Of a DNA stretch of 42,145 bases, positions 1-42,145 are shown in pieces; positions within the stretch are counted from its first letter, which is position 1, and the number at the start of each line of letters is the position of its first letter. The DNA lies in the sequence record NC_073322.1; one strand, 5' to 3'. The position numbers were made by a program, and so were the translations under genes. Under the pieces are notes generated by a model. It was not told where the DNA came from. It did not search any database and worked only from the letters and a program-made list of their open reading frames with translations. The DNA is from Escherichia phage vB_EcoS-Ro145c2YLVW.

Positions 1-203
1 AGTGGATTAAGTGTAGTGAGCAGATGCCACCTAAAATGACCGGAGTTCTGGTTGCTACTGAGTTCTGGCATAAAGGTGACTGGCGTATGAAGTGGGCTAC
101 TTATGTGCCTGGGCATCCGGATGCTGACGATGGGTGGCTGATTCCTGGTGCTTCCTGGAAGCCATCACACTGGATGCCGTTACCAGAGCCACCGGAAGTG
201 TGA
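1..203 (+). CDS. hypothetical protein, 3' fragment (gene starts upstream of window)
   Basis: Frame open from window edge to TGA at 201-203; in-frame ATG at 24 could also give a 59-aa product. Confidence 0.3.
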   Translation, partial: WIKCSEQMPPKMTGVLVATEFWHKGDWRMKWATYVPGHPDADDGWLIPGASWKPSHWMPLPEPPEV

Positions 204-504: not shown

Positions 505-511
505 AATTTAC

Positions 512-540
512 TTGCACACTTGAATAGAATAGGCTACTAT
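512..540 (+). promoter_or_regulatory. sigma70-like promoter, conserved class A cassette (TTGCAC-17 nt-TACTAT)
   Basis: -35 TTGCAC, 17-nt spacer, -10 TACTAT; about 30 nt near-identical to cassettes at 10598-10626(-), 20344-20372(-), 41428-41456(+). Confidence 0.5.
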
Positions 541-570
541 TCATTTACACGAACGAGAGGAGAGACAGAG

Positions 571-4528: not shown

Positions 4529-4612
4529 ATGAGTCTTGGAGTGGTTATTGGTCTGGTCGGTCTTAGTTACTTCATTGGGTTATTGGTTGGATTTCTGTGG
4601 GGTAGATACTAA
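4529..4612 (+). CDS. small hydrophobic peptide (27 aa)
   Basis: ATG after GAGAG; single predicted membrane helix; stop overlaps ATG 4612. Confidence 0.3.
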   Translation: MSLGVVIGLVGLSYFIGLLVGFLWGRY

Positions 4613-4893
4613 TGGCACGTACCGTTGCCGCGAGATTCACTGATATTGAATCTGCGATAGAAGAAGCTGTTTATAATAAATTCTGCAACCCCTCTGCTAC
4701 GCACAACTACGGAGTTATTGTTAAATACGGCAAGTTTGAAATTAGGAGAGTTCGCACCGGTCGCCCGCACGAGTTTTTATGGACAACAGAAAGCCTAGTC
4801 CCGCGGTGCCACATTTACACAAGCGGCGCACATACGATTTTTGTAGACCTTAACAAGAAAGATATTACCGTCACTAAAGGAGAGACAAATTGA
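4612..4893 (+). CDS. hypothetical protein
   Basis: Track ORF, ATG start. Confidence 0.5.
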   Translation: MARTVAARFTDIESAIEEAVYNKFCNPSATHNYGVIVKYGKFEIRRVRTGRPHEFLWTTESLVPRCHIYTSGAHTIFVDLNKKDITVTKGETN

Positions 4894-32780: not shown

Positions 32781-34958
32781 TCACTTAGCGTACCGGTACA
32801 TTTCGCTGCCTTCTGCTACAAGAGGGAATCCCTCAGCCCATTCAGGTAATTCGCACATCAATCGTTCGAGTTCAGCCACATTGTATTCAGGCGAATCTGG
32901 CGTCTCGCAGATAATTTCATCGTGTACATGAAGTACAATCGGGTAGCCGTTTGCTTCAACGTTAAGTAGCGCATTAGCCAGCAAGTCACGGCACAGTGCC
33001 TGGGTACAGTTTTCCACCAGTTTCCCGGAGTACGTGTACTGGAAGCCCCACTGACGAGTTAACTGGTTTTCACCTTGGTACTTGATGCGCACGTTAGTAG
33101 AAACTTTCCCGTCTTCGTCCGTCTCTTTCGATACACTTAAACCTACGCCAGGGTAGGACATTACGCGGCCTGACGGCAACGTCATGCGCAACCACCAACC
33201 AGCTACCTTGTTGCCGTTGTTATCTGTTTCTACGTTGCGTGAAAACTTAACGCCACGAGGACCAGCGGTGAACTCTTTCCCTGGATTACGTATTGCCGCC
33301 ATAGCTGCGTCTTCGATATCACGCCAGAAAGCTACAGTCTCAGGGTGCGACTCGCGCCACATGCGCTTGATAGCGTCACATGTACGCCAGACTTTCTTAT
33401 CCAGAATATATGATGGTCGGTCATCTTTTTCACCAGGACGCGGTGGCCGCTTGGCTTCCTGAATACGCGCCCACTCGTACCCACGTGCGGTAGCGGCCCA
33501 GATGTGGTCAGGGAAAGTACCGTCCATTGTTTTAGCCATATCAACCAGGTCAAGGCCGAGGTTCTTGGCGAACTGAACGAAAGCCCCTACGCCGCCAGCG
33601 TAGCCGAGTCCCAACTCGCAAGCTTTGCCTATCTGGCGAAGGTCTTTACGTTCTTTCTTAATGTAATCCGGTTCCAGGCCAAACATCTTGCCCGCCGTTA
33701 CGCAATAAATATCCAGCCCGGCCCGGAAAGTATCGAGCGCGGCTTCTTCGCCCGCCAGCCATGCCAGCCCGCGACCTTCAACGTTAGAGTAATCTGCAAC
33801 AACAAACTTGTGCCCTGCTTCCGGGATAATGCAGCTGCGCACCGTAGATGCCGTTAGCTTGGCTACATCAAACCGACGATGCGCACGTCCTTTCAGCAAC
33901 GCAGAAATCCCTTTATCCAGCTCATCGTCATGATAGTACCCGCGGGCCAGGTTCTGTGGCTGGAAGCCTTTACCGGCGAATCGTAGCGTACGTTTAGCCC
34001 CGCCGTACTGGATGCAACCGCGGCGGCGGTCGTCAGAAGAACGACCCAGCAATAACGGTGTGTATTTCGTTGACGCGGTGGACGCCGCTCCGAGGCGCAT
34101 TTCGACAATATCACGGGCATCGTCGGGTAAATCCTCGTCAGCCAGCAGGTCAAACAACGTTGCTTTTTGCGCGTTATGAATGCGGTTCGCAGGGGCCAGT
34201 TCCTGCAATGCCGGTAGAAAGTCTTTTCCGGTTAATGAACAGCCGAATTTACGTTGAGATTCCTCCTGCAACTCCCCCTTATGCCGTGTTATGGCTTCAA
34301 TAGCGGCTTCTGCCAGCGCAATATCAACCTTGAACCCGCGGTCGTTGATTAACTGGTCCAGTTCCAGTACGCGGTCCTCGAACTCAGAGTTGCCCCACGA
34401 CGGCATTTTTTGAAACACTTCACGCATCGAAGTGATATCACTAATAGCGTACTTGATGAATAACGCCCACTCCTCCGGGTGCGTCTCAGACGTATAGCGG
34501 CGTATTTTGTAATTCTTCGGGGTCGGCTTGGTGAATCTCTTTATTAACGCCTTACCGCGTTTGTCCTTGGCGTTCTCTGCAGATACTTCCAGCACTTCAC
34601 ACAAAACAGCCAATTTCCCCGGCAGCGCGTGGCGAAAAGCACAGGTCATTGTATCTATAACGCTGCTTACAGGTATGTCATAGCCCCAGCAGTTGCGGAT
34701 AACTAAGCGGTCAAACATATTGAAGTTATGACCTACAATCTTAATATCCCCTCTCATTGCCTTACGCAGGCCAACTTTCAGGTCGCGCGGCATATCGCTG
34801 CCGTCTGTGCAGTCCCAGCAACGCACCTCGCCGTCGTCGAACGCGTAGGTGCATATCAGAATTTCTGTAGATGGGTGTTCGGCGTAGGCATAACTGCCGA
34901 CAACCGTTATGTCTAATTCACAAAAAGTTTCTGTATCAAGATAAAGTAATTCGTTCAT
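32781..34958 (-). CDS. DNA polymerase, family A, with 3'-5' exonuclease domain
   Basis: Exo I LYLDTETF; pol motif A VVADYSNVEGR, motif B-like RQIGKACELGLGYAGG, motif C VHDEI. Confidence 0.9.
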   Translation of the reverse strand: MNELLYLDTETFCELDITVVGSYAYAEHPSTEILICTYAFDDGEVRCWDCTDGSDMPRDLKVGLRKAMRGDIKIVGHNFNMFDRLVIRNCWGYDIPVSSVIDTMTCAFRHALPGKLAVLCEVLEVSAENAKDKRGKALIKRFTKPTPKNYKIRRYTSETHPEEWALFIKYAISDITSMREVFQKMPSWGNSEFEDRVLELDQLINDRGFKVDIALAEAAIEAITRHKGELQEESQRKFGCSLTGKDFLPALQELAPANRIHNAQKATLFDLLADEDLPDDARDIVEMRLGAASTASTKYTPLLLGRSSDDRRRGCIQYGGAKRTLRFAGKGFQPQNLARGYYHDDELDKGISALLKGRAHRRFDVAKLTASTVRSCIIPEAGHKFVVADYSNVEGRGLAWLAGEEAALDTFRAGLDIYCVTAGKMFGLEPDYIKKERKDLRQIGKACELGLGYAGGVGAFVQFAKNLGLDLVDMAKTMDGTFPDHIWAATARGYEWARIQEAKRPPRPGEKDDRPSYILDKKVWRTCDAIKRMWRESHPETVAFWRDIEDAAMAAIRNPGKEFTAGPRGVKFSRNVETDNNGNKVAGWWLRMTLPSGRVMSYPGVGLSVSKETDEDGKVSTNVRIKYQGENQLTRQWGFQYTYSGKLVENCTQALCRDLLANALLNVEANGYPIVLHVHDEIICETPDSPEYNVAELERLMCELPEWAEGFPLVAEGSEMYRYAK

Positions 34959-34974
34959 TATTTCGACCCTTTGT

Positions 34975-34997
34975 AAAAAGGCCCAATAAAGGGCCTT
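34975..34997 (-). terminator. intra-operon terminator/attenuator between SSB and polymerase
   Basis: AAGGCCC-TTTATT-GGGCCTT hairpin followed by TTTT on minus strand. Confidence 0.55.
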
Positions 34998-37938: not shown

Positions 37939-37969
37939 TTGTTTCTCTCCTCTCGTTTGGTATGGGCTA

Positions 37970-37999
37970 ACTATAATAGCTGACTATTCATGATGTCAA
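37970..37999 (-). promoter_or_regulatory. sigma70-like promoter, class B (TTGACA-18 nt-TATAGT)
   Basis: Consensus -35, conserved spacer core; divergent from XRE gene. Confidence 0.5.
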
Positions 38000-38063
38000 T
38001 GGGCTTTTCTAAAATAATTAATATGGTACTATTCACATATCAACTGACTAAGGAGTGATTAAC

Positions 38064-38279
38064 ATGCAACCATCTGAACTAGGCATCCGTGTAGAACAGC
38101 GCCGTAAAGAACTCGGCATCTCCCAGCGCCGTCTGGCTGTCCTGACGGGAGTTTCTCAGGGCGCAATTAATCAGCTTGCACTCGGAGTAACTCAGGACGT
38201 CCGCCCGGCAACGCTGTTTAAACTGGCGGAAGTGCTGGAAGTAGACGCCAAGTGGCTGGCGTTAGGTGAAGGGGCTTAA
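38064..38279 (+). CDS. XRE-family HTH transcriptional regulator
   Basis: ELGISQRRLAVLTGVSQGAINQL helix-turn-helix; AAGGAG SD before ATG 38064. Confidence 0.7.
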   Translation: MQPSELGIRVEQRRKELGISQRRLAVLTGVSQGAINQLALGVTQDVRPATLFKLAEVLEVDAKWLALGEGA

Positions 38280-40595: not shown

Positions 40596-40829
40596 TTATT
40601 CCAGGTCTTCTAAAGTAGCGGTCATTCCGCGAACTTCTGCAACAGCGCTATATTTCCCGCCAACGTTTTTTACGACACCGGATTTAACCAGCACGCGTAA
40701 CGACGCTTCAATAATGGCGGAACTATAGTACTTAAAATAACTGCGGCGCAAGTCAAGAACACTACACGACCCTTTTTTACGTGTAAGCGAAACTACCGCC
40801 GTAAATACTCGTGACTGGAACTCTGTCAT
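40596..40829 (-). CDS. hypothetical protein ending in TLEDLE
   Basis: Track ORF; shares C-terminal DLE tail with primase and exonuclease. Confidence 0.45.
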   Translation of the reverse strand: MTEFQSRVFTAVVSLTRKKGSCSVLDLRRSYFKYYSSAIIEASLRVLVKSGVVKNVGGKYSAVAEVRGMTATLEDLE

Positions 40830-40996
40830 TTCACATTCTCCTTAATCCACGCTTCCACTTTATCCGGGTCAAACGTACCTGGCTGACGGCGGCCCATAAT
40901 GCGGATACAGCAATCAGGGAACTTCCCACTCTTTAACCAGTTATTCAGCGTTCGACGAGTAACCCCGATACGCTCGGCTACCTCATTCTGCGTCAT
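40826..40996 (-). CDS. small HTH DNA-binding protein
   Basis: NEVAERIGVTRRTLNNWLK helix-turn-helix; start set to ATG 40996 with GAGGG SD (track gives TTG 41029). Confidence 0.55.
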   Translation of the reverse strand: MTQNEVAERIGVTRRTLNNWLKSGKFPDCCIRIMGRRQPGTFDPDKVEAWIKENVK

Positions 40997-41028
40997 TCTC
41001 AAACCCTCATTATCAGTTAACGAAACCA

Positions 41029-41057
41029 AGTATACATTGCGAATAATGGGAAATCAA
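41029..41057 (-). promoter_or_regulatory. sigma70-like promoter (TTGATT-17 nt-TATACT) for replication operon
   Basis: Hexamers at correct spacing about 30 nt upstream of ATG 40996. Confidence 0.4.
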
Positions 41058-41336
41058 ACATAATCTCACCTATTGACATTACGGAAATCTTCGTTTAAGG
41101 TGCTTCTATATCTTAGTTACTTTGATTCCTGTTCACCTTGTAAAACCCGCCGAAAACGAGCGCACAACGCGAAGTGTTAGGCGGCAGTTTACTGAACATT
41201 CGAATTATCGTAACTTCCCTTCCTTAGTATCTCAGTTGCCCTGGGCAAGCTCTATTCTCATCGGCAGCATATCTCTTAAGTAACTGATTTTTTTAATGTG
41301 CTGTAGATTCGCAACCGTAAAAATGTAACGATTATT

Positions 41337-41364
41337 GGGCAGGCTTAAGGCCTGCCCTTTAGTT
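41337..41364 (+). terminator. rho-independent terminator in non-coding region
   Basis: GGGCAGGC-TTAA-GCCTGCCC hairpin followed by TTTAGTT. Confidence 0.55.
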
Positions 41365-41427
41365 ACCAAGTAATAAGAATAAAGGCACATCCCTACCTGA
41401 AGAATCACAACGGCAACGAATCTTTGC

Positions 41428-41456
41428 TTGCATACCCCAATATAATAGGCTACTAT
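41428..41456 (+). promoter_or_regulatory. sigma70-like promoter, class A cassette (TTGCAT-17 nt-TACTAT)
   Basis: Near-identical to cassettes at 512, 10598, 20344. Confidence 0.5.
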
Positions 41457-41490
41457 TCACTTATCGAAACGAGACAGAGGGGTGAGGGTT

Positions 41491-41676
41491 ATGTTTAAGA
41501 AGGGTCAGTTGGTCAGGGACAAACAAACCGGCGATTTATTCGAGGTAATAGAATCGAATTTAATGTGGTTTGGTTTTGTAGAGGTTAATAGCGCGGCGGG
41601 CTACGGAAAGGGTTTACTTCGTAAGTGCGATTTAGAACTCATCGGCAACAATTTTAAATTCAAAGGGGCGAAGTGA
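41491..41676 (+). CDS. hypothetical small protein (61 aa)
   Basis: Track ORF 41482..41676 trimmed to ATG 41491; GAGACAGAGGGGTGAGGG leader. Confidence 0.45.
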   Translation: MFKKGQLVRDKQTGDLFEVIESNLMWFGFVEVNSAAGYGKGLLRKCDLELIGNNFKFKGAK

Positions 41677-41930
41677 TGGAAGAATTAATTTGTATTGAAT
41701 CTGAACCAGATGTGCAGGGTTGGTTTGTAAAAGGTAACAAGTATTCGTCTGGAGTATATTACGACGGCCGTCGATACGTTTTAGATGAAGACGGTGATGA
41801 ATGGGATTTAGAGGACGCGGTTGGAGGAACTTTAACTATTAGTTTCTTCAATGCTGTTGCCGCCTCATTCACAACGGCATCGAATCATGATGCGAGTGCC
41901 GACGACTCTGAGGGAGGTTGCCGTGAATAA
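41673..41930 (+). CDS. hypothetical acidic protein
   Basis: Track ORF coupled by ATGA overlap. Confidence 0.45.
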   Translation: MMEELICIESEPDVQGWFVKGNKYSSGVYYDGRRYVLDEDGDEWDLEDAVGGTLTISFFNAVAASFTTASNHDASADDSEGGCRE

Positions 41931-41990: not shown

Positions 41991-42145
41991 ATGAGAGAAG
42001 CATTTGAACGCTGGGCCGTAGTCGAGGGGCTGCCGGTTAACAAGGGTTCGAAGAAAGAGTACCTGAACGTTAAGACGCGTCTCGCGTGGCGGGCGTGGAA
42101 AGCTGGCGTTCGAACTGCGATGAATAAGGAGGTGAAACATGAGCG
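41991..42145 (+). CDS. hypothetical protein, 5' fragment running off window end
   Basis: ATG 41991, open to window end; may continue into the partial ORF at window start if the genome is circularly permuted. Confidence 0.3.
   Translation, partial: MREAFERWAVVEGLPVNKGSKKEYLNVKTRLAWRAWKAGVRTAMNKEVKHE

What the first reader, a model, noticed from the sequence alone, without database searches (positions are those of the whole stretch)
41058..41427. 370-bp non-coding region with internal terminator between divergent early promoters
The region has no convincing ORF, a candidate promoter (TTGACA at 41073 with a weak -10), AT-rich tracts and a strong terminator hairpin at 41337-41364 just before the class A promoter. 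It may encode a small RNA of about 250 nt or contain the replication origin, given its position next to the primase/helicase operon.
Basis: partly seen in the sequence, partly recalled or inferred. Interest (0 to 1): 0.45.

Follow-up and report, generated by a model that had tools for sequence, protein, structure and literature searches.

The report
Conserved structured early non-coding RNA unit
The largest gene-free stretch of this E. coli phage, also found in several hundred related Salmonella and E. coli phages, looks like an unannotated gene for a folded RNA of about 255 bases that is made early in infection, not empty spacer DNA; what the RNA does is unknown.

Summary
The window is Escherichia phage vB_EcoS-Ro145clw (Kagunavirus, Guernseyvirinae). 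Positions 41058-41427 lie inside a 494-nt ORF-free gap (40997-41490) between the leftward HTH/primase-helicase operon and the rightward early genes.

The gap contains:
- back-to-back sigma-70 promoters: P_left 41029-41057 and P_right, TTGACA 41073, N17, TAAGGT;
- a GC hairpin with a short T run (41337-41364);
- a 40-nt promoter motif (41428-41456) that occurs four times in the genome.

Comparative data favour the small-RNA reading:
- No ORF is conserved.
- P_right is invariant across two genera.
- A 101-nt hairpin (41115-41215) folds the same way in 31 distinct variants (mean z -5.2). Its tip has at least seven sequence alleles that all stay paired.
- One-sided changes in the aligned stems are mostly G.U on the + strand.
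- The 3' part is 90-94% identical between genera whose primase-helicase is about 65% identical.

The element is mosaic. Unrelated cassettes of the same layout sit in the same slot in other Kagunaviruses. There is no match in Rfam, plasmids or E. coli genomes.

The replication-origin reading has no sequence hallmark (no iterons, DnaA boxes or GATC; the RNA is G-poor). It cannot be excluded, because the layout mirrors the transcript-dependent origin of lactococcal phage c2. The function is inferred, not shown.

The parts
41029..41057 (-). P_left: leftward sigma-70-type promoter (TTGATT, 17 nt, TATACT) for the HTH / 77-aa / primase-helicase operon
   Evidence: Consensus scan. The homologous position is annotated as a promoter in PVP-SE2. 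The surrounding 'AATGGGAAATCAA' is invariant across genera. The HTH gene is an early gene in a Kagunavirus time-course transcriptome (PMC12645636).
41073..41101 (+). P_right: rightward promoter, TTGACA (41073-41078), 17 nt, TAAGGT (41096-41101). Predicted start near 41108.
   Evidence: Sequence. 'CACCTATTGACAT' and TAAG(G/T)T are invariant in the A1-type homologues I aligned. The site is annotated as an RpoD promoter in AG11. The three unrelated allelic types also carry a promoter here in the same orientation: TTGACA-16-TAAAAT and TTGAAA-18-TATAAT, both 11/12, and TTGACT-17-TAAGCT, which I read by eye and the scan did not list.
41115..41215 (+). P1: 101-nt interrupted hairpin. Basal stem AGUUAC/GUAACU, a conserved 4-nt CCUU bulge at 41136-41139, and a variable tip.
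   Evidence: Minimum-free-energy fold, -32.9 kcal/mol. The same architecture appears in 31 distinct variants, mean z -5.2 against dinucleotide shuffles. Compensatory pairs: CG<->UA, GC<->AU and AU/GU/GC. A 1-nt indel on the 5' side (UGUUCA vs GUUUCA) is matched on the 3' side (UGAACA vs UGAAAC).
41142..41188 (+). Hypervariable tip of P1. In this phage: CCGCC (41147-41151) pairs with GGCGG (41180-41184), and an inner GCG/CGC stem carries the loop CACAA.
   Evidence: 20 distinct tip sequences fall into at least seven helix alleles. Examples: CCGCC/GGCGG, UGUUUAACCC/GGGUUAAACA, CGCUUAA/UUAAGCG, CCGCUUGA/UUAAGCGG, CUUAGCG/CGCGUUAAG. All fold as two-tier hairpins, -11 to -26 kcal/mol, and the flanks are about 95% identical within Kagunavirus.
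41216..41235 (+). Unpaired pyrimidine-rich linker UCCCUUCCUUAGUAUCUCAG (two CUUCC motifs, resembling an anti-Shine-Dalgarno sequence; GUAUCU is invariant).
   Evidence: Unpaired in the single-sequence and consensus folds. CUUCC lies at 41214 and 41219. CCUCC-type stretches also occur in unpaired parts of allelic types A3 and A4 and in some A1 variants. The CU part itself varies.
41236..41248 (+). P2: small hairpin UUGCCCUGGGCAA
   Evidence: Scan. Consensus fold with a UA->UG change in 12 of 29 sequences. Weak: -3.9 kcal/mol.
41262..41303 (+). P3: tentative hairpin bridging modules A and B (CGGCA 41262-41266 with UGCUG 41299-41303; UUAAG with UUUAA inside).
   Evidence: Consensus fold, with only one-sided (G.U) changes and no double compensation. 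The 3' arm motif UGCCGUA is shared by modules B1 and B2. Not kept in all A2 combinations, so the support is weak.
41287..41289 (.). Recombination junction between module A (40997-41287) and module B1 (41289-41399), at the shared motif ACTGA(T).
   Evidence: BLAST breakpoints at query positions 291 and 293 are shared by phages with A1 only and phages with B1 only. B1 is lost in SETP13-like phages by deletion between the direct repeats GTA(A/T)CTGA.
41289..41399 (+). Module B1: AT-rich stretch, bipartite terminator hairpin, and a conserved tail GUAAUAAGAAUAAAGGCACA.
   Evidence: Found in 333 phage records, all at 88.7% identity or more. It is 90-94% identical to Jerseyviruses, against 50-82% for neighbouring coding DNA. 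Against AG11, the best tile of the element (41251-41350, spanning the A/B junction) ranks 19th of 841 genome tiles; tile 41301 ranks 98th.
41325..41366 (+). Terminator: lower stem GUAAC (41325-41329) / GUUAC (41362-41366), upper stem 41337-41357, and U tract UUUAGUU (41358-41364).
   Evidence: Scan. Upper stem -17.1 kcal/mol. CG<->UA compensation in 5 of 29 sequences and variable loops. The U run is present only on the + strand. Sub-threshold Rfam hits here are all to the 3' ends of Hfq-type sRNAs on the + strand.
41428..41456 (+). P_A: the second rightward promoter (TTGCAT, 17 nt, TACTAT). It is part of a 40-nt motif repeated four times in the genome and is followed by SD and ATG at 41491.
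   Evidence: It bounds the non-coding unit and is not part of the RNA.

Best explanation
The region is a self-contained early transcription unit for a structured non-coding RNA of about 255-260 nt. It is not spacer DNA and not a protein gene.

Proposed sequence of events:
1. Host sigma-70 RNA polymerase starts at P_right (TTGACA 41073 / TAAGGT 41096), near position 41108. P_right sits back-to-back with P_left, which drives the replication operon.
2. The nascent RNA folds into a 101-nt rod, P1 (41115-41215), whose tip varies freely in sequence but stays paired.
3. The rod is followed by an exposed pyrimidine-rich linker (41216-41235), two small hairpins, and an A/U-rich stretch.
4. Transcription ends, at least partly, at the GC hairpin plus UUUAGUU (41337-41364), just upstream of the next early promoter.

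What is shown:
- absence of coding potential;
- conservation of the promoter, rod and terminator across Kagunavirus and Jerseyvirus;
- compensatory and G.U-type substitutions;
- modular replacement by unrelated cassettes of the same layout.

What is inferred:
- that the RNA is made and is discrete;
- that the RNA, not the DNA, is the selected product.

Most speculative is the role. I favour a regulatory RNA that uses the exposed CU-rich (anti-Shine-Dalgarno-like) linker, held between stable hairpins, to bind purine-rich ribosome-binding regions or an RNA-binding protein early in infection. P1 and the terminator would give stability.

Probabilities: about 0.6 that a discrete functional RNA is made here; about 0.3 that it is a trans-acting or otherwise regulatory RNA.
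For: - No conserved ORF. Several homologues have no ORF of 30 aa or more, and indels shift the frames.
- The promoter is conserved and is annotated independently in AG11.
- All four unrelated allelic types carry a promoter in the same orientation, then GC-rich hairpins, then a hairpin with a T run.
- P1 is kept in 31 variants, mean z -5.2. There are at least seven tip alleles, all hairpins.
- 99.1% of cells are paired, and 0 of 500 shuffles reach the observed covariation score. 28 cells show double changes, against 8.9 expected.
- The common one-sided changes in stems are G.U on the + strand (AU->GU in 10 and 11 sequences, UA->UG in 12 and 12). Non-pairs are singletons. This fits the strand set by the promoter and the U tract.
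- The core is conserved at the level of the top 2-12% of genome tiles, although it is non-coding.
- There is one copy per genome, restricted to Guernseyvirinae. No match in Rfam, plasmids, E. coli genomes or GTDB genomes other than a contaminant contig.
Against: - No transcript data were available.
- The -10 hexamer is weak (TAAGGT) and the U tract is short, so read-through into the early genes is likely. The RNA could then be a leader and not a discrete product.
- Covariation in the aligned, conserved stems rests on few independent events, essentially the Kagunavirus/Jerseyvirus split. Only 4 pairs have double changes, which is not above shuffled expectation for that measure.
- The - strand folds about as well: z -2.9 for the whole unit, and it is more stable in 9 of 31 P1 variants. 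A DNA-level hairpin is therefore not excluded.
- The CU-rich linker is less conserved than its surroundings.
- No outstanding target was found among the 67 phage translation-initiation regions; the best is about 2.3 sd from the mean. No antisense match of 11 nt or more exists in the phage genome.
- Strong conservation continues about 30 nt past the predicted 3' end (41366-41391), which an RNA ending at the terminator does not explain.
- Module B1 is naturally absent in SETP13-like phages.
Confidence: 0.55

Rival explanations
1. Transcript-dependent replication origin. The P_right transcript acts in cis, as a primer, an R-loop or an activator of duplex opening, to start phage DNA replication beside the replication operon. 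This is how the non-coding PE1-T transcript is thought to work in the origin of lactococcal phage c2 (Ceduovirus). T7, T4 and ColE1 origins also depend on a transcript.
For: - The layout matches the c2 origin as described in PMC7150918: a non-coding region between divergent gene blocks; flanked by the first two early promoters in the same direction; no ORF or RBS; several unrelated sequence types, each more than 90% conserved; RNA length and structure important.
- It is probably the largest ORF-free stretch of the genome and lies next to the primase-helicase operon.
- The cumulative GC skew has its minimum near 41000.
- The AT-rich stretch 41269-41328 is among the 0.6% least stable 60-bp windows.
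- Sequence conservation exceeds what RNA pairing alone needs.
Against: - No iterons or tandem repeats here or elsewhere in the genome. No DnaA box or GATC in the gap.
- The skew minimum coincides with the switch in gene orientation, so it is confounded.
- About a dozen places are as AT-rich or more so. The least stable 100-bp window is 37967-38066.
- The predicted RNA is G-poor (G 50, C 60, U 83 of 259), and it is U-rich where a hybrid would form. This is the opposite of known R-loop or primer RNAs.
- Natural A/B chimeras and B1-less phages exist, whereas chimeric c2 origins are reported to be non-functional.
- Module A types do not track primase-helicase similarity. A1 occurs with helicases 97%, 86% and 65% identical to this one, and A3 with helicases 86% and 93% identical.
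Confidence: 0.22
2. Cis-acting leader or insulator of the rightward early operon. P_right transcripts are meant to read into the early genes. The hairpins would be processing or stability sites (RNase III-type, as in the T7 early leader), or an attenuator or antiterminator switch. Alternatively, the terminator simply insulates the regulated P_A promoter from the constitutive P_right.
For: - The U tract is short (UUUAGUU), so termination is probably partial.
- In SETP13-like phages without module B there is no intrinsic terminator before the early genes.
- P1 is a rod of about 45 bp, long enough for RNase III.
- Jerseyviruses carry tandem promoter-hairpin cassettes over 620-970 nt here.
- The C-rich, G-poor unpaired linker resembles a Rho-loading site.
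Against: - The early genes have their own conserved promoter 70 nt downstream of the terminator, so a 380-nt leader is not needed for their expression.
- The terminator hairpin and its U tract are invariant or compensated in all 29 B1 sequences.
- There is no conserved pairing between the CU-rich linker and the SD of the first gene. That gene's initiation region was not among the five best-scoring partners of the linker.
Confidence: 0.15
3. A DNA-level element only: operator and regulator-binding sites for the HTH_17 protein or another phage protein, or a single-strand hairpin signal for primase or helicase loading. Any transcript would be incidental.
For: - HTH protein variants co-segregate with module A type: 96-98% identical with Kagunavirus A1, 71% with A3.
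- Contiguous primary-sequence conservation over about 150 bp, extending beyond the terminator.
- The - strand folds about as well as the + strand.
Against: - HTH/module A co-segregation is expected from simple linkage.
- Operators do not need a 101-nt hairpin kept by compensatory changes and a freely varying but always paired tip.
- G.U-type changes are tolerated on the + strand only.
- A promoter and terminator bracket the element in every allelic type.
Confidence: 0.08

Closest known systems
Origin region of Lactococcus phage c2 / Ceduovirus, with its non-coding early transcript PE1-T (as summarised in PMC7150918, citing Waterfield 1996, Lubbers 1998, Rakonjac 2003 and Schiemann 2004)
   Same: - A non-coding region between divergently transcribed gene blocks.
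- Bounded by the first two early promoters, which point the same way.
- No ORF and no RBS after the first promoter.
- The first promoter is expected to give a short non-coding RNA.
- Several mutually unrelated sequence types at the same slot, each more than 90% conserved within its type.
   Different: - No sequence similarity.
- The hosts are unrelated (Lactococcus vs Enterobacteriaceae).
- This phage encodes its own DNA polymerase and primase-helicase, whereas c2 origins replicate plasmids without phage proteins.
- Natural chimeras of the two modules exist here, and one module can be absent.
- Origin activity and the transcript are untested here.
Hfq- or ProQ-type bacterial and prophage small regulatory RNAs (for example PinT and Hrs12, the best sub-threshold Rfam hits)
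   Same: - Own sigma-70 promoter.
- No coding potential.
- Stable 5' hairpin, exposed pyrimidine-rich stretch, A/U-rich stretch, then a GC hairpin with U's at the 3' end.
- Size near the upper end of the sRNA range.
   Different: - Rfam scores are 17-22 bits against gathering scores of 60-79, so it is not a member of any described family.
- The U tail is short.
- The candidate seed is not the best-conserved part.
- No target was identified.
- It is carried by strictly lytic phages and is absent from E. coli genomes.
ColE1 RNA II / RNA I and the T4 oriF / T7 primary origin (promoter-driven origins)
   Same: A promoter followed by structured, non-coding transcribed DNA next to an AT-rich stretch. 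The hairpin tip is hypervariable, reminiscent of the specificity loops of antisense-controlled replicons.
   Different: - The RNA is G-poor and U-rich where a hybrid would form.
- No convincing antisense promoter inside the unit.
- No sequence in the phage complementary to the variable tip.
- No match to any plasmid.
T7-type early leader with RNase III processing hairpins
   Same: Strong host-type early promoter(s), followed by a long imperfect hairpin before the first early gene.
   Different: Here a terminator and a second promoter lie between the hairpin and the genes. RNase III cleavage is untested.

Membership tests
Any Rfam 15 family | Covariance-model score at or above the family's gathering threshold | tested here: not met
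   No hit in the window or in six loci carrying the other allelic types. At E <= 10 the best hits are 17-22 bits against gathering scores of 60-90.
Protein-coding small gene | An ORF with a start codon and frame conserved among homologues | tested here: not met
   Five Jerseyvirus homologues have no ORF of 30 aa or more. 1-2-nt indels and tips of variable length shift the frames. The ATG of a 10-codon mini-ORF at 41297 is AAG in several phages.
c2-type (Ceduovirus) transcript-dependent origin | A non-coding intergenic region between divergent gene blocks, flanked by the first two early promoters in the same orientation, with no ORF or RBS | tested here: met
   P_right is at 41073-41101 and P_A at 41428-41456, both on the + strand. 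P_left and the replication operon diverge from them. No conserved ORF.
c2-type (Ceduovirus) transcript-dependent origin | Several unrelated sequence types at the same locus, each highly conserved within its type | tested here: met
   Module A has four types (A1-A4) and module B has two (B1, B2). B1 is at least 88.7% identical in 333 records, and B2 is nearly invariant in 15 loci. The covariance model of A1 finds no A2, A3 or A4.
c2-type (Ceduovirus) transcript-dependent origin | No natural recombinant origins; chimeras are non-functional | tested here: not met
   The combinations A1+B1, A1+B2, A4+B1, A2+B2, A3+B2 and A1 without B all occur in sequenced phages.
c2-type (Ceduovirus) transcript-dependent origin | The fragment supports replication, and the transcript is required in cis | not testable with these tools
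   Needs plasmid replication assays, marker-frequency analysis and promoter mutants.
Iteron / DnaA-type origin (lambda, P4, SaPI, plasmid-like) | A cluster of direct repeats (iterons) for an initiator protein | tested here: not met
   No direct-repeat family beyond chance pairs of 8-20 nt in 40900-41600. No tandem array or iteron cluster anywhere in the window. TGTTCACC, the P4 iteron octamer as I recall it, occurs once (41131-41138) and reads TGTTTCACC in Jerseyviruses.
Iteron / DnaA-type origin (lambda, P4, SaPI, plasmid-like) | DnaA boxes, GATC clusters, and an AT-rich unwinding element | tested here: inconclusive
   No GATC in the gap. There is one DnaA-like site with a single mismatch, and it lies in the P_left spacer. 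The AT-rich stretch 41269-41328 is in the lowest 0.6% for duplex stability but is not unique.
Trans-acting (Hfq-type) small regulatory RNA | Own promoter and an intrinsic terminator that define a discrete untranslated RNA | tested here: inconclusive
   Both are predicted and conserved. The U tract has only 3 U's followed by AGUU, and no transcript data exist.
Trans-acting (Hfq-type) small regulatory RNA | A conserved unpaired seed with complementarity to target mRNAs | tested here: inconclusive
   The CU-rich linker is unpaired but variable. No outstanding partner was found among the 67 phage initiation regions. There is no antisense match of 11 nt or more in the phage. Short host seeds cannot be searched with these tools, and BLAST against E. 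coli genomes found nothing.
R-loop / primer RNA (ColE1 RNA II, T4 oriF) | A G-rich RNA (positive GC skew) able to form a persistent hybrid, and, for ColE1, an antisense regulator RNA | tested here: not met
   The RNA composition is A 66, C 60, G 50, U 83. The only - strand promoter-like site nearby (41467..41439, 9/12) lies outside the unit and is not conserved in the other motif copies.

The most novel reading that the evidence does not exclude
The unit is an RNA-defined, cassette-exchangeable replication origin of the Guernseyvirinae. An early host-polymerase transcript, whose 100-nt rod must fold correctly, would license initiation beside the phage's own primase-helicase. The freely varying hairpin tip and the unrelated alleles at the same slot would act as replicon-specificity determinants between co-infecting relatives. 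This would extend the c2 / ColE1 principle to enterobacterial lytic siphophages that carry a complete replisome.
Probability: 0.15. Interest if true: 0.7.

Novelty: new member of a known kind. Interest (0 to 1): 0.5.

Why it matters
Kagunaviruses and Jerseyviruses are among the most often isolated E. coli and Salmonella phages. The collection searched here holds more than 400 genomes. They are used for biocontrol and as engineering chassis. In the records inspected here, this 370-500-nt control region is unannotated apart from single promoter features and a few non-conserved hypothetical ORFs.

If the RNA is real, it is a new, family-wide early phage RNA with a clear and testable anatomy. It is either a regulator of the host or phage early programme or the key to where replication starts, and the replication origin of this subfamily is not known to me.

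There are practical consequences:
- Genome-minimisation or payload-insertion designs should not treat this gap as free space.
- Hypothetical ORFs annotated in it (for example in CR01, Bas73, Bas76 and NTEC3) are probably spurious.
- The cassette structure gives a natural set of swap experiments.

Tried and rejected
- **Known RNA families.** Rfam searches at the gathering threshold and at E <= 10 found nothing, for this phage and for the other allelic types. There are no tRNA or tmRNA genes.
- **Small protein.** The ORFs 41122-41283 (+), 41232-41408 (-) and a 10-codon mini-ORF at 41297 were rejected for lack of conservation.
- **Iteron origin.** Searches for repeats, tandem repeats, DnaA boxes and GATC sites were negative. 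The single TGTTCACC octamer is not repeated and not conserved.
- **GC skew as origin evidence.** The minimum is real but coincides with the flip in gene orientation.
- **DNA unwinding element.** The AT-rich stretch is not unique.
- **Host or plasmid origin of the element.** No match in plasmids, E. coli complete genomes or GTDB genomes. The seven pattern hits in GTDB are about the chance expectation by my estimate. One (L088) is a contaminating Jerseyvirus contig, two are 24-25-nt chance matches, and the rest gave no BLAST match.
- **Target search.** No antisense match of 11 nt or more in the phage genome, and no outlier among the 67 initiation regions.
- **CsrA sponge.** There are no GGA motifs.
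- **Homology between allelic types.** The covariance model of A1 finds only A1, one copy per genome. The only shared strings are short: GTAAC..TTAGTATCT.AGTT between A1 and A3, and TGCCGTA between B1 and B2.
- **Genome terminus in the element.** Several Jerseyvirus records are opened at equivalents of 41270-41317. In the one record I read (celemicas), the sequence is contiguous across the break, with no repeat. Relatives are reported to package by the headful mechanism, so I treat this as unexplained curation.
- **Literature.** No paper in the searchable library describes this region. The one Kagunavirus transcriptome reports only annotated genes.
- **Primary c2 papers.** The original c2-origin papers are not held in the library.
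Full report
**Identity and context.** The window is 100% identical over the 901-nt query 40800-41700 to Escherichia phage vB_EcoS-Ro145clw (MG852086.2; Kagunavirus, Guernseyvirinae). The finding lies in the 494-nt gap 40997-41490.
- To the left, on the - strand, are three genes: a 56-aa HTH_17 protein with its ATG at 40996; a 77-aa protein; and a 746-aa primase-helicase with an AAA_25 domain at residues 352-522.
- To the right, on the + strand, a string of small early genes starts at ATG 41491.
- The other large annotated gap in the record contains an unannotated 93-aa ORF. This gap is therefore probably the largest truly ORF-free stretch.

**Observation check.**
- TTGACA lies at 41073-41078, followed by 17 nt and TAAGGT at 41096-41101.
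- A GC hairpin at 41337-41357 (-17.1 kcal/mol) is followed by TTTAGTT.
- A leftward promoter, TTGATT-17-TATACT, lies at 41057..41029.
- Downstream, TTGCAT (41428) - 17 nt - TACTAT (41451) sits inside a 40-nt motif found four times in the genome.
- Two of these sites carry independent promoter annotations in relatives: P_left in PVP-SE2 and P_right in AG11.
- The raw counts of promoter-like and terminator-like sites are not above shuffled expectation. The argument therefore rests on comparison with relatives.

**Non-coding.** The three ORFs in the region are not conserved. Five Jerseyvirus homologues have no ORF of 30 aa or more across 400 nt, and 1-2-nt indels and variable-length segments shift the frames in others. 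No SD plus start codon follows P_right.

**Conservation.**
- The gap matches 445 phage records, apparently all Guernseyvirinae; a few carry other host names.
- Against Jerseyviruses, whose primase-helicase is about 65% identical in protein, 41301-41400 is 90-94% identical. That is higher than any 100-nt window of the flanking 3.7 kb, where coding DNA is 50-82% identical.
- Genome-wide against AG11, tile 41251-41350 ranks 19th of 841.
- There is no match in plasmids, in 5,426 complete E. coli genomes, or in GTDB genomes apart from one contaminating phage contig.

**Mosaic structure.** BLAST breakpoints define module A (40997-41287: both divergent promoters plus about 180 nt transcribed) and module B1 (41289-41399: AT-rich stretch plus terminator).
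- Some Jerseyviruses, SETP13-like, have A1 without B1. This looks like a deletion between GTA(A/T)CTGA repeats.
- Some Kagunaviruses have B1 behind an unrelated module, A4.
- Many have unrelated A2 or A3 modules followed by a different, almost invariant B2.
- Every type keeps the same layout: a rightward promoter about 60-110 nt from the HTH gene, then GC-rich hairpins, then a hairpin with a T run, then the conserved P_A promoter module. The promoters are TTGACA-16-TAAAAT, TTGAAA-18-TATAAT and TTGACT-17-TAAGCT; the last was read by eye and is not listed by the scan.
- A covariance model built from A1 finds only A1, once per genome.
- Module A type does not follow primase-helicase similarity, but it co-segregates with the adjacent HTH allele.

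**RNA structure.**
- The predicted transcript 41108-41372 folds with z -3.25 on the + strand and z -2.9 on the - strand.
- Its main feature is P1, a 101-nt interrupted hairpin at 41115-41215. Thirty-one distinct P1 variants from phage, viral-contig and metagenome collections fold into the same architecture, with mean z -5.2.
- The Kagunavirus and Jerseyvirus versions differ by compensated changes. These include CG<->UA, GC<->AU and AU/GU/GC pairs, and a 1-nt indel matched on the opposite arm.
- The P1 tip (41142-41188) is hypervariable inside flanks that are about 95% identical. There are 20 distinct sequences and at least seven helix alleles, every one a two-tier hairpin.
- On a 29-sequence alignment, 99.1% of cells are paired, against 29-48% when the 3' partners are slid by 1-3 columns. 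None of 500 shuffles reaches the observed covariation score.
- That evidence has limits. Only 4 pairs show double changes, and most variation traces to the single split between the two genera.
- The frequent one-sided changes are G.U on the + strand, which would be A.C on the - strand. The promoter orientation and the T run agree that the + strand is the functional one.
- The terminator stem shows one CG<->UA compensation and variable loops.
- P2 and P3 are weakly supported.

**What it most likely is.** The simplest reading of a conserved promoter, a compensated 100-nt hairpin, no coding potential and a conserved hairpin terminator about 255 nt downstream is a discrete early non-coding RNA.
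- The unpaired pyrimidine-rich linker (41216-41235, two CUUCC motifs) resembles an anti-Shine-Dalgarno sequence. CCUCC-type stretches also occur in unpaired parts of types A3 and A4.
- That is the basis for my preferred, but weakly supported, role as a regulatory RNA.
- Against it: the linker varies; no phage target stands out; the U tail is short; and conservation runs past the predicted 3' end.

**The origin reading.** There are no iterons, no DnaA box in the transcribed part, no GATC sites, and no uniquely unstable DNA.
- The skew minimum is confounded by gene orientation.
- The RNA is G-poor and U-rich, unlike primer or R-loop RNAs.
- Even so, the closest described system in layout is the origin of lactococcal phage c2. 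That origin is a non-coding region between divergent gene blocks, bounded by the first two early promoters. [quoted passage not shown] It also has three unrelated sequence types, each more than 90% conserved (PMC7150918).
- The locus here meets the layout features but not the 'no chimeras' feature, and its activity is untestable with these tools.
- I therefore keep this as the main rival, at about 0.2.
- A cis-acting leader or insulator role (about 0.15) and a purely DNA-level element (below 0.1) remain possible.

**Novelty and verdict.** No paper in the searchable library and no Rfam family describes this element. The GenBank records inspected leave it blank, annotate single promoters, or place non-conserved hypothetical ORFs in it. 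It is best filed as a new family of a known kind: a phage-encoded early non-coding RNA or transcript-bearing control region. It is real, conserved across a whole subfamily and experimentally tractable, but its function is unproven. Interest is moderate.

Noticed in passing
window 41427-41465 (+), 507-558 (+), 20376-20337 (-), 10626-10591 (-): A 40-nt promoter motif, cTTGCAcACCCCAAtATAATAGGnTACTATTCAc, occurs four times. Each copy is followed 25-35 nt later by SD plus ATG. The conserved spacer suggests a binding site for a phage or host factor. For two copies, the ATG lies inside the annotated genes 00014 and 00065 of MG852086.2, so those annotated starts are probably too far upstream.
   Followed up: partly
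window 4612-4893 (+): An unannotated 93-aa ORF fills most of the 534-nt gap in the GenBank annotation (record 34458-34991).
   Followed up: partly
equivalents of window 41270-41317 in Jerseyvirus records (celemicas L091/L092, templet, blauehaus, dunkel, horsemountain): Five independently deposited Jerseyvirus genomes are opened within about 50 nt of each other inside this element. In the one record I read (celemicas), the sequence is contiguous across the break, with no terminal repeat. The reason is unknown: a curation convention, or a pile-up of read ends.
   Followed up: partly
window 37967-38066: The least stable (most AT-rich) 100-bp stretch of the genome is the small divergent gap between gene 00035 and the DicA-like repressor gene, next to the 3' end of the primase-helicase gene. 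It is an alternative origin candidate.
   Followed up: no
L088 (NZ_JACVEL010000022.1, Taishania pollutisoli scaffold22) 1990-2413: This bacterial genome assembly contains an 18,987-bp scaffold with a Jerseyvirus-type intergenic region, 77% identical over 420 nt. It is most likely phage contamination of the assembly.
   Followed up: partly
L012 and L015, between the HTH gene and the intergenic region: Two Kagunavirus contigs carry about 140 nt of extra sequence inserted directly upstream of the conserved gap. It is possibly an additional small gene on the - strand.
   Followed up: no
window 1-120 vs 42026-42145: The window is 114 nt longer than the 42,031-bp circular GenBank record, but its two ends are not identical. 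The extra length must come from a difference elsewhere. I did not locate it.
   Followed up: no
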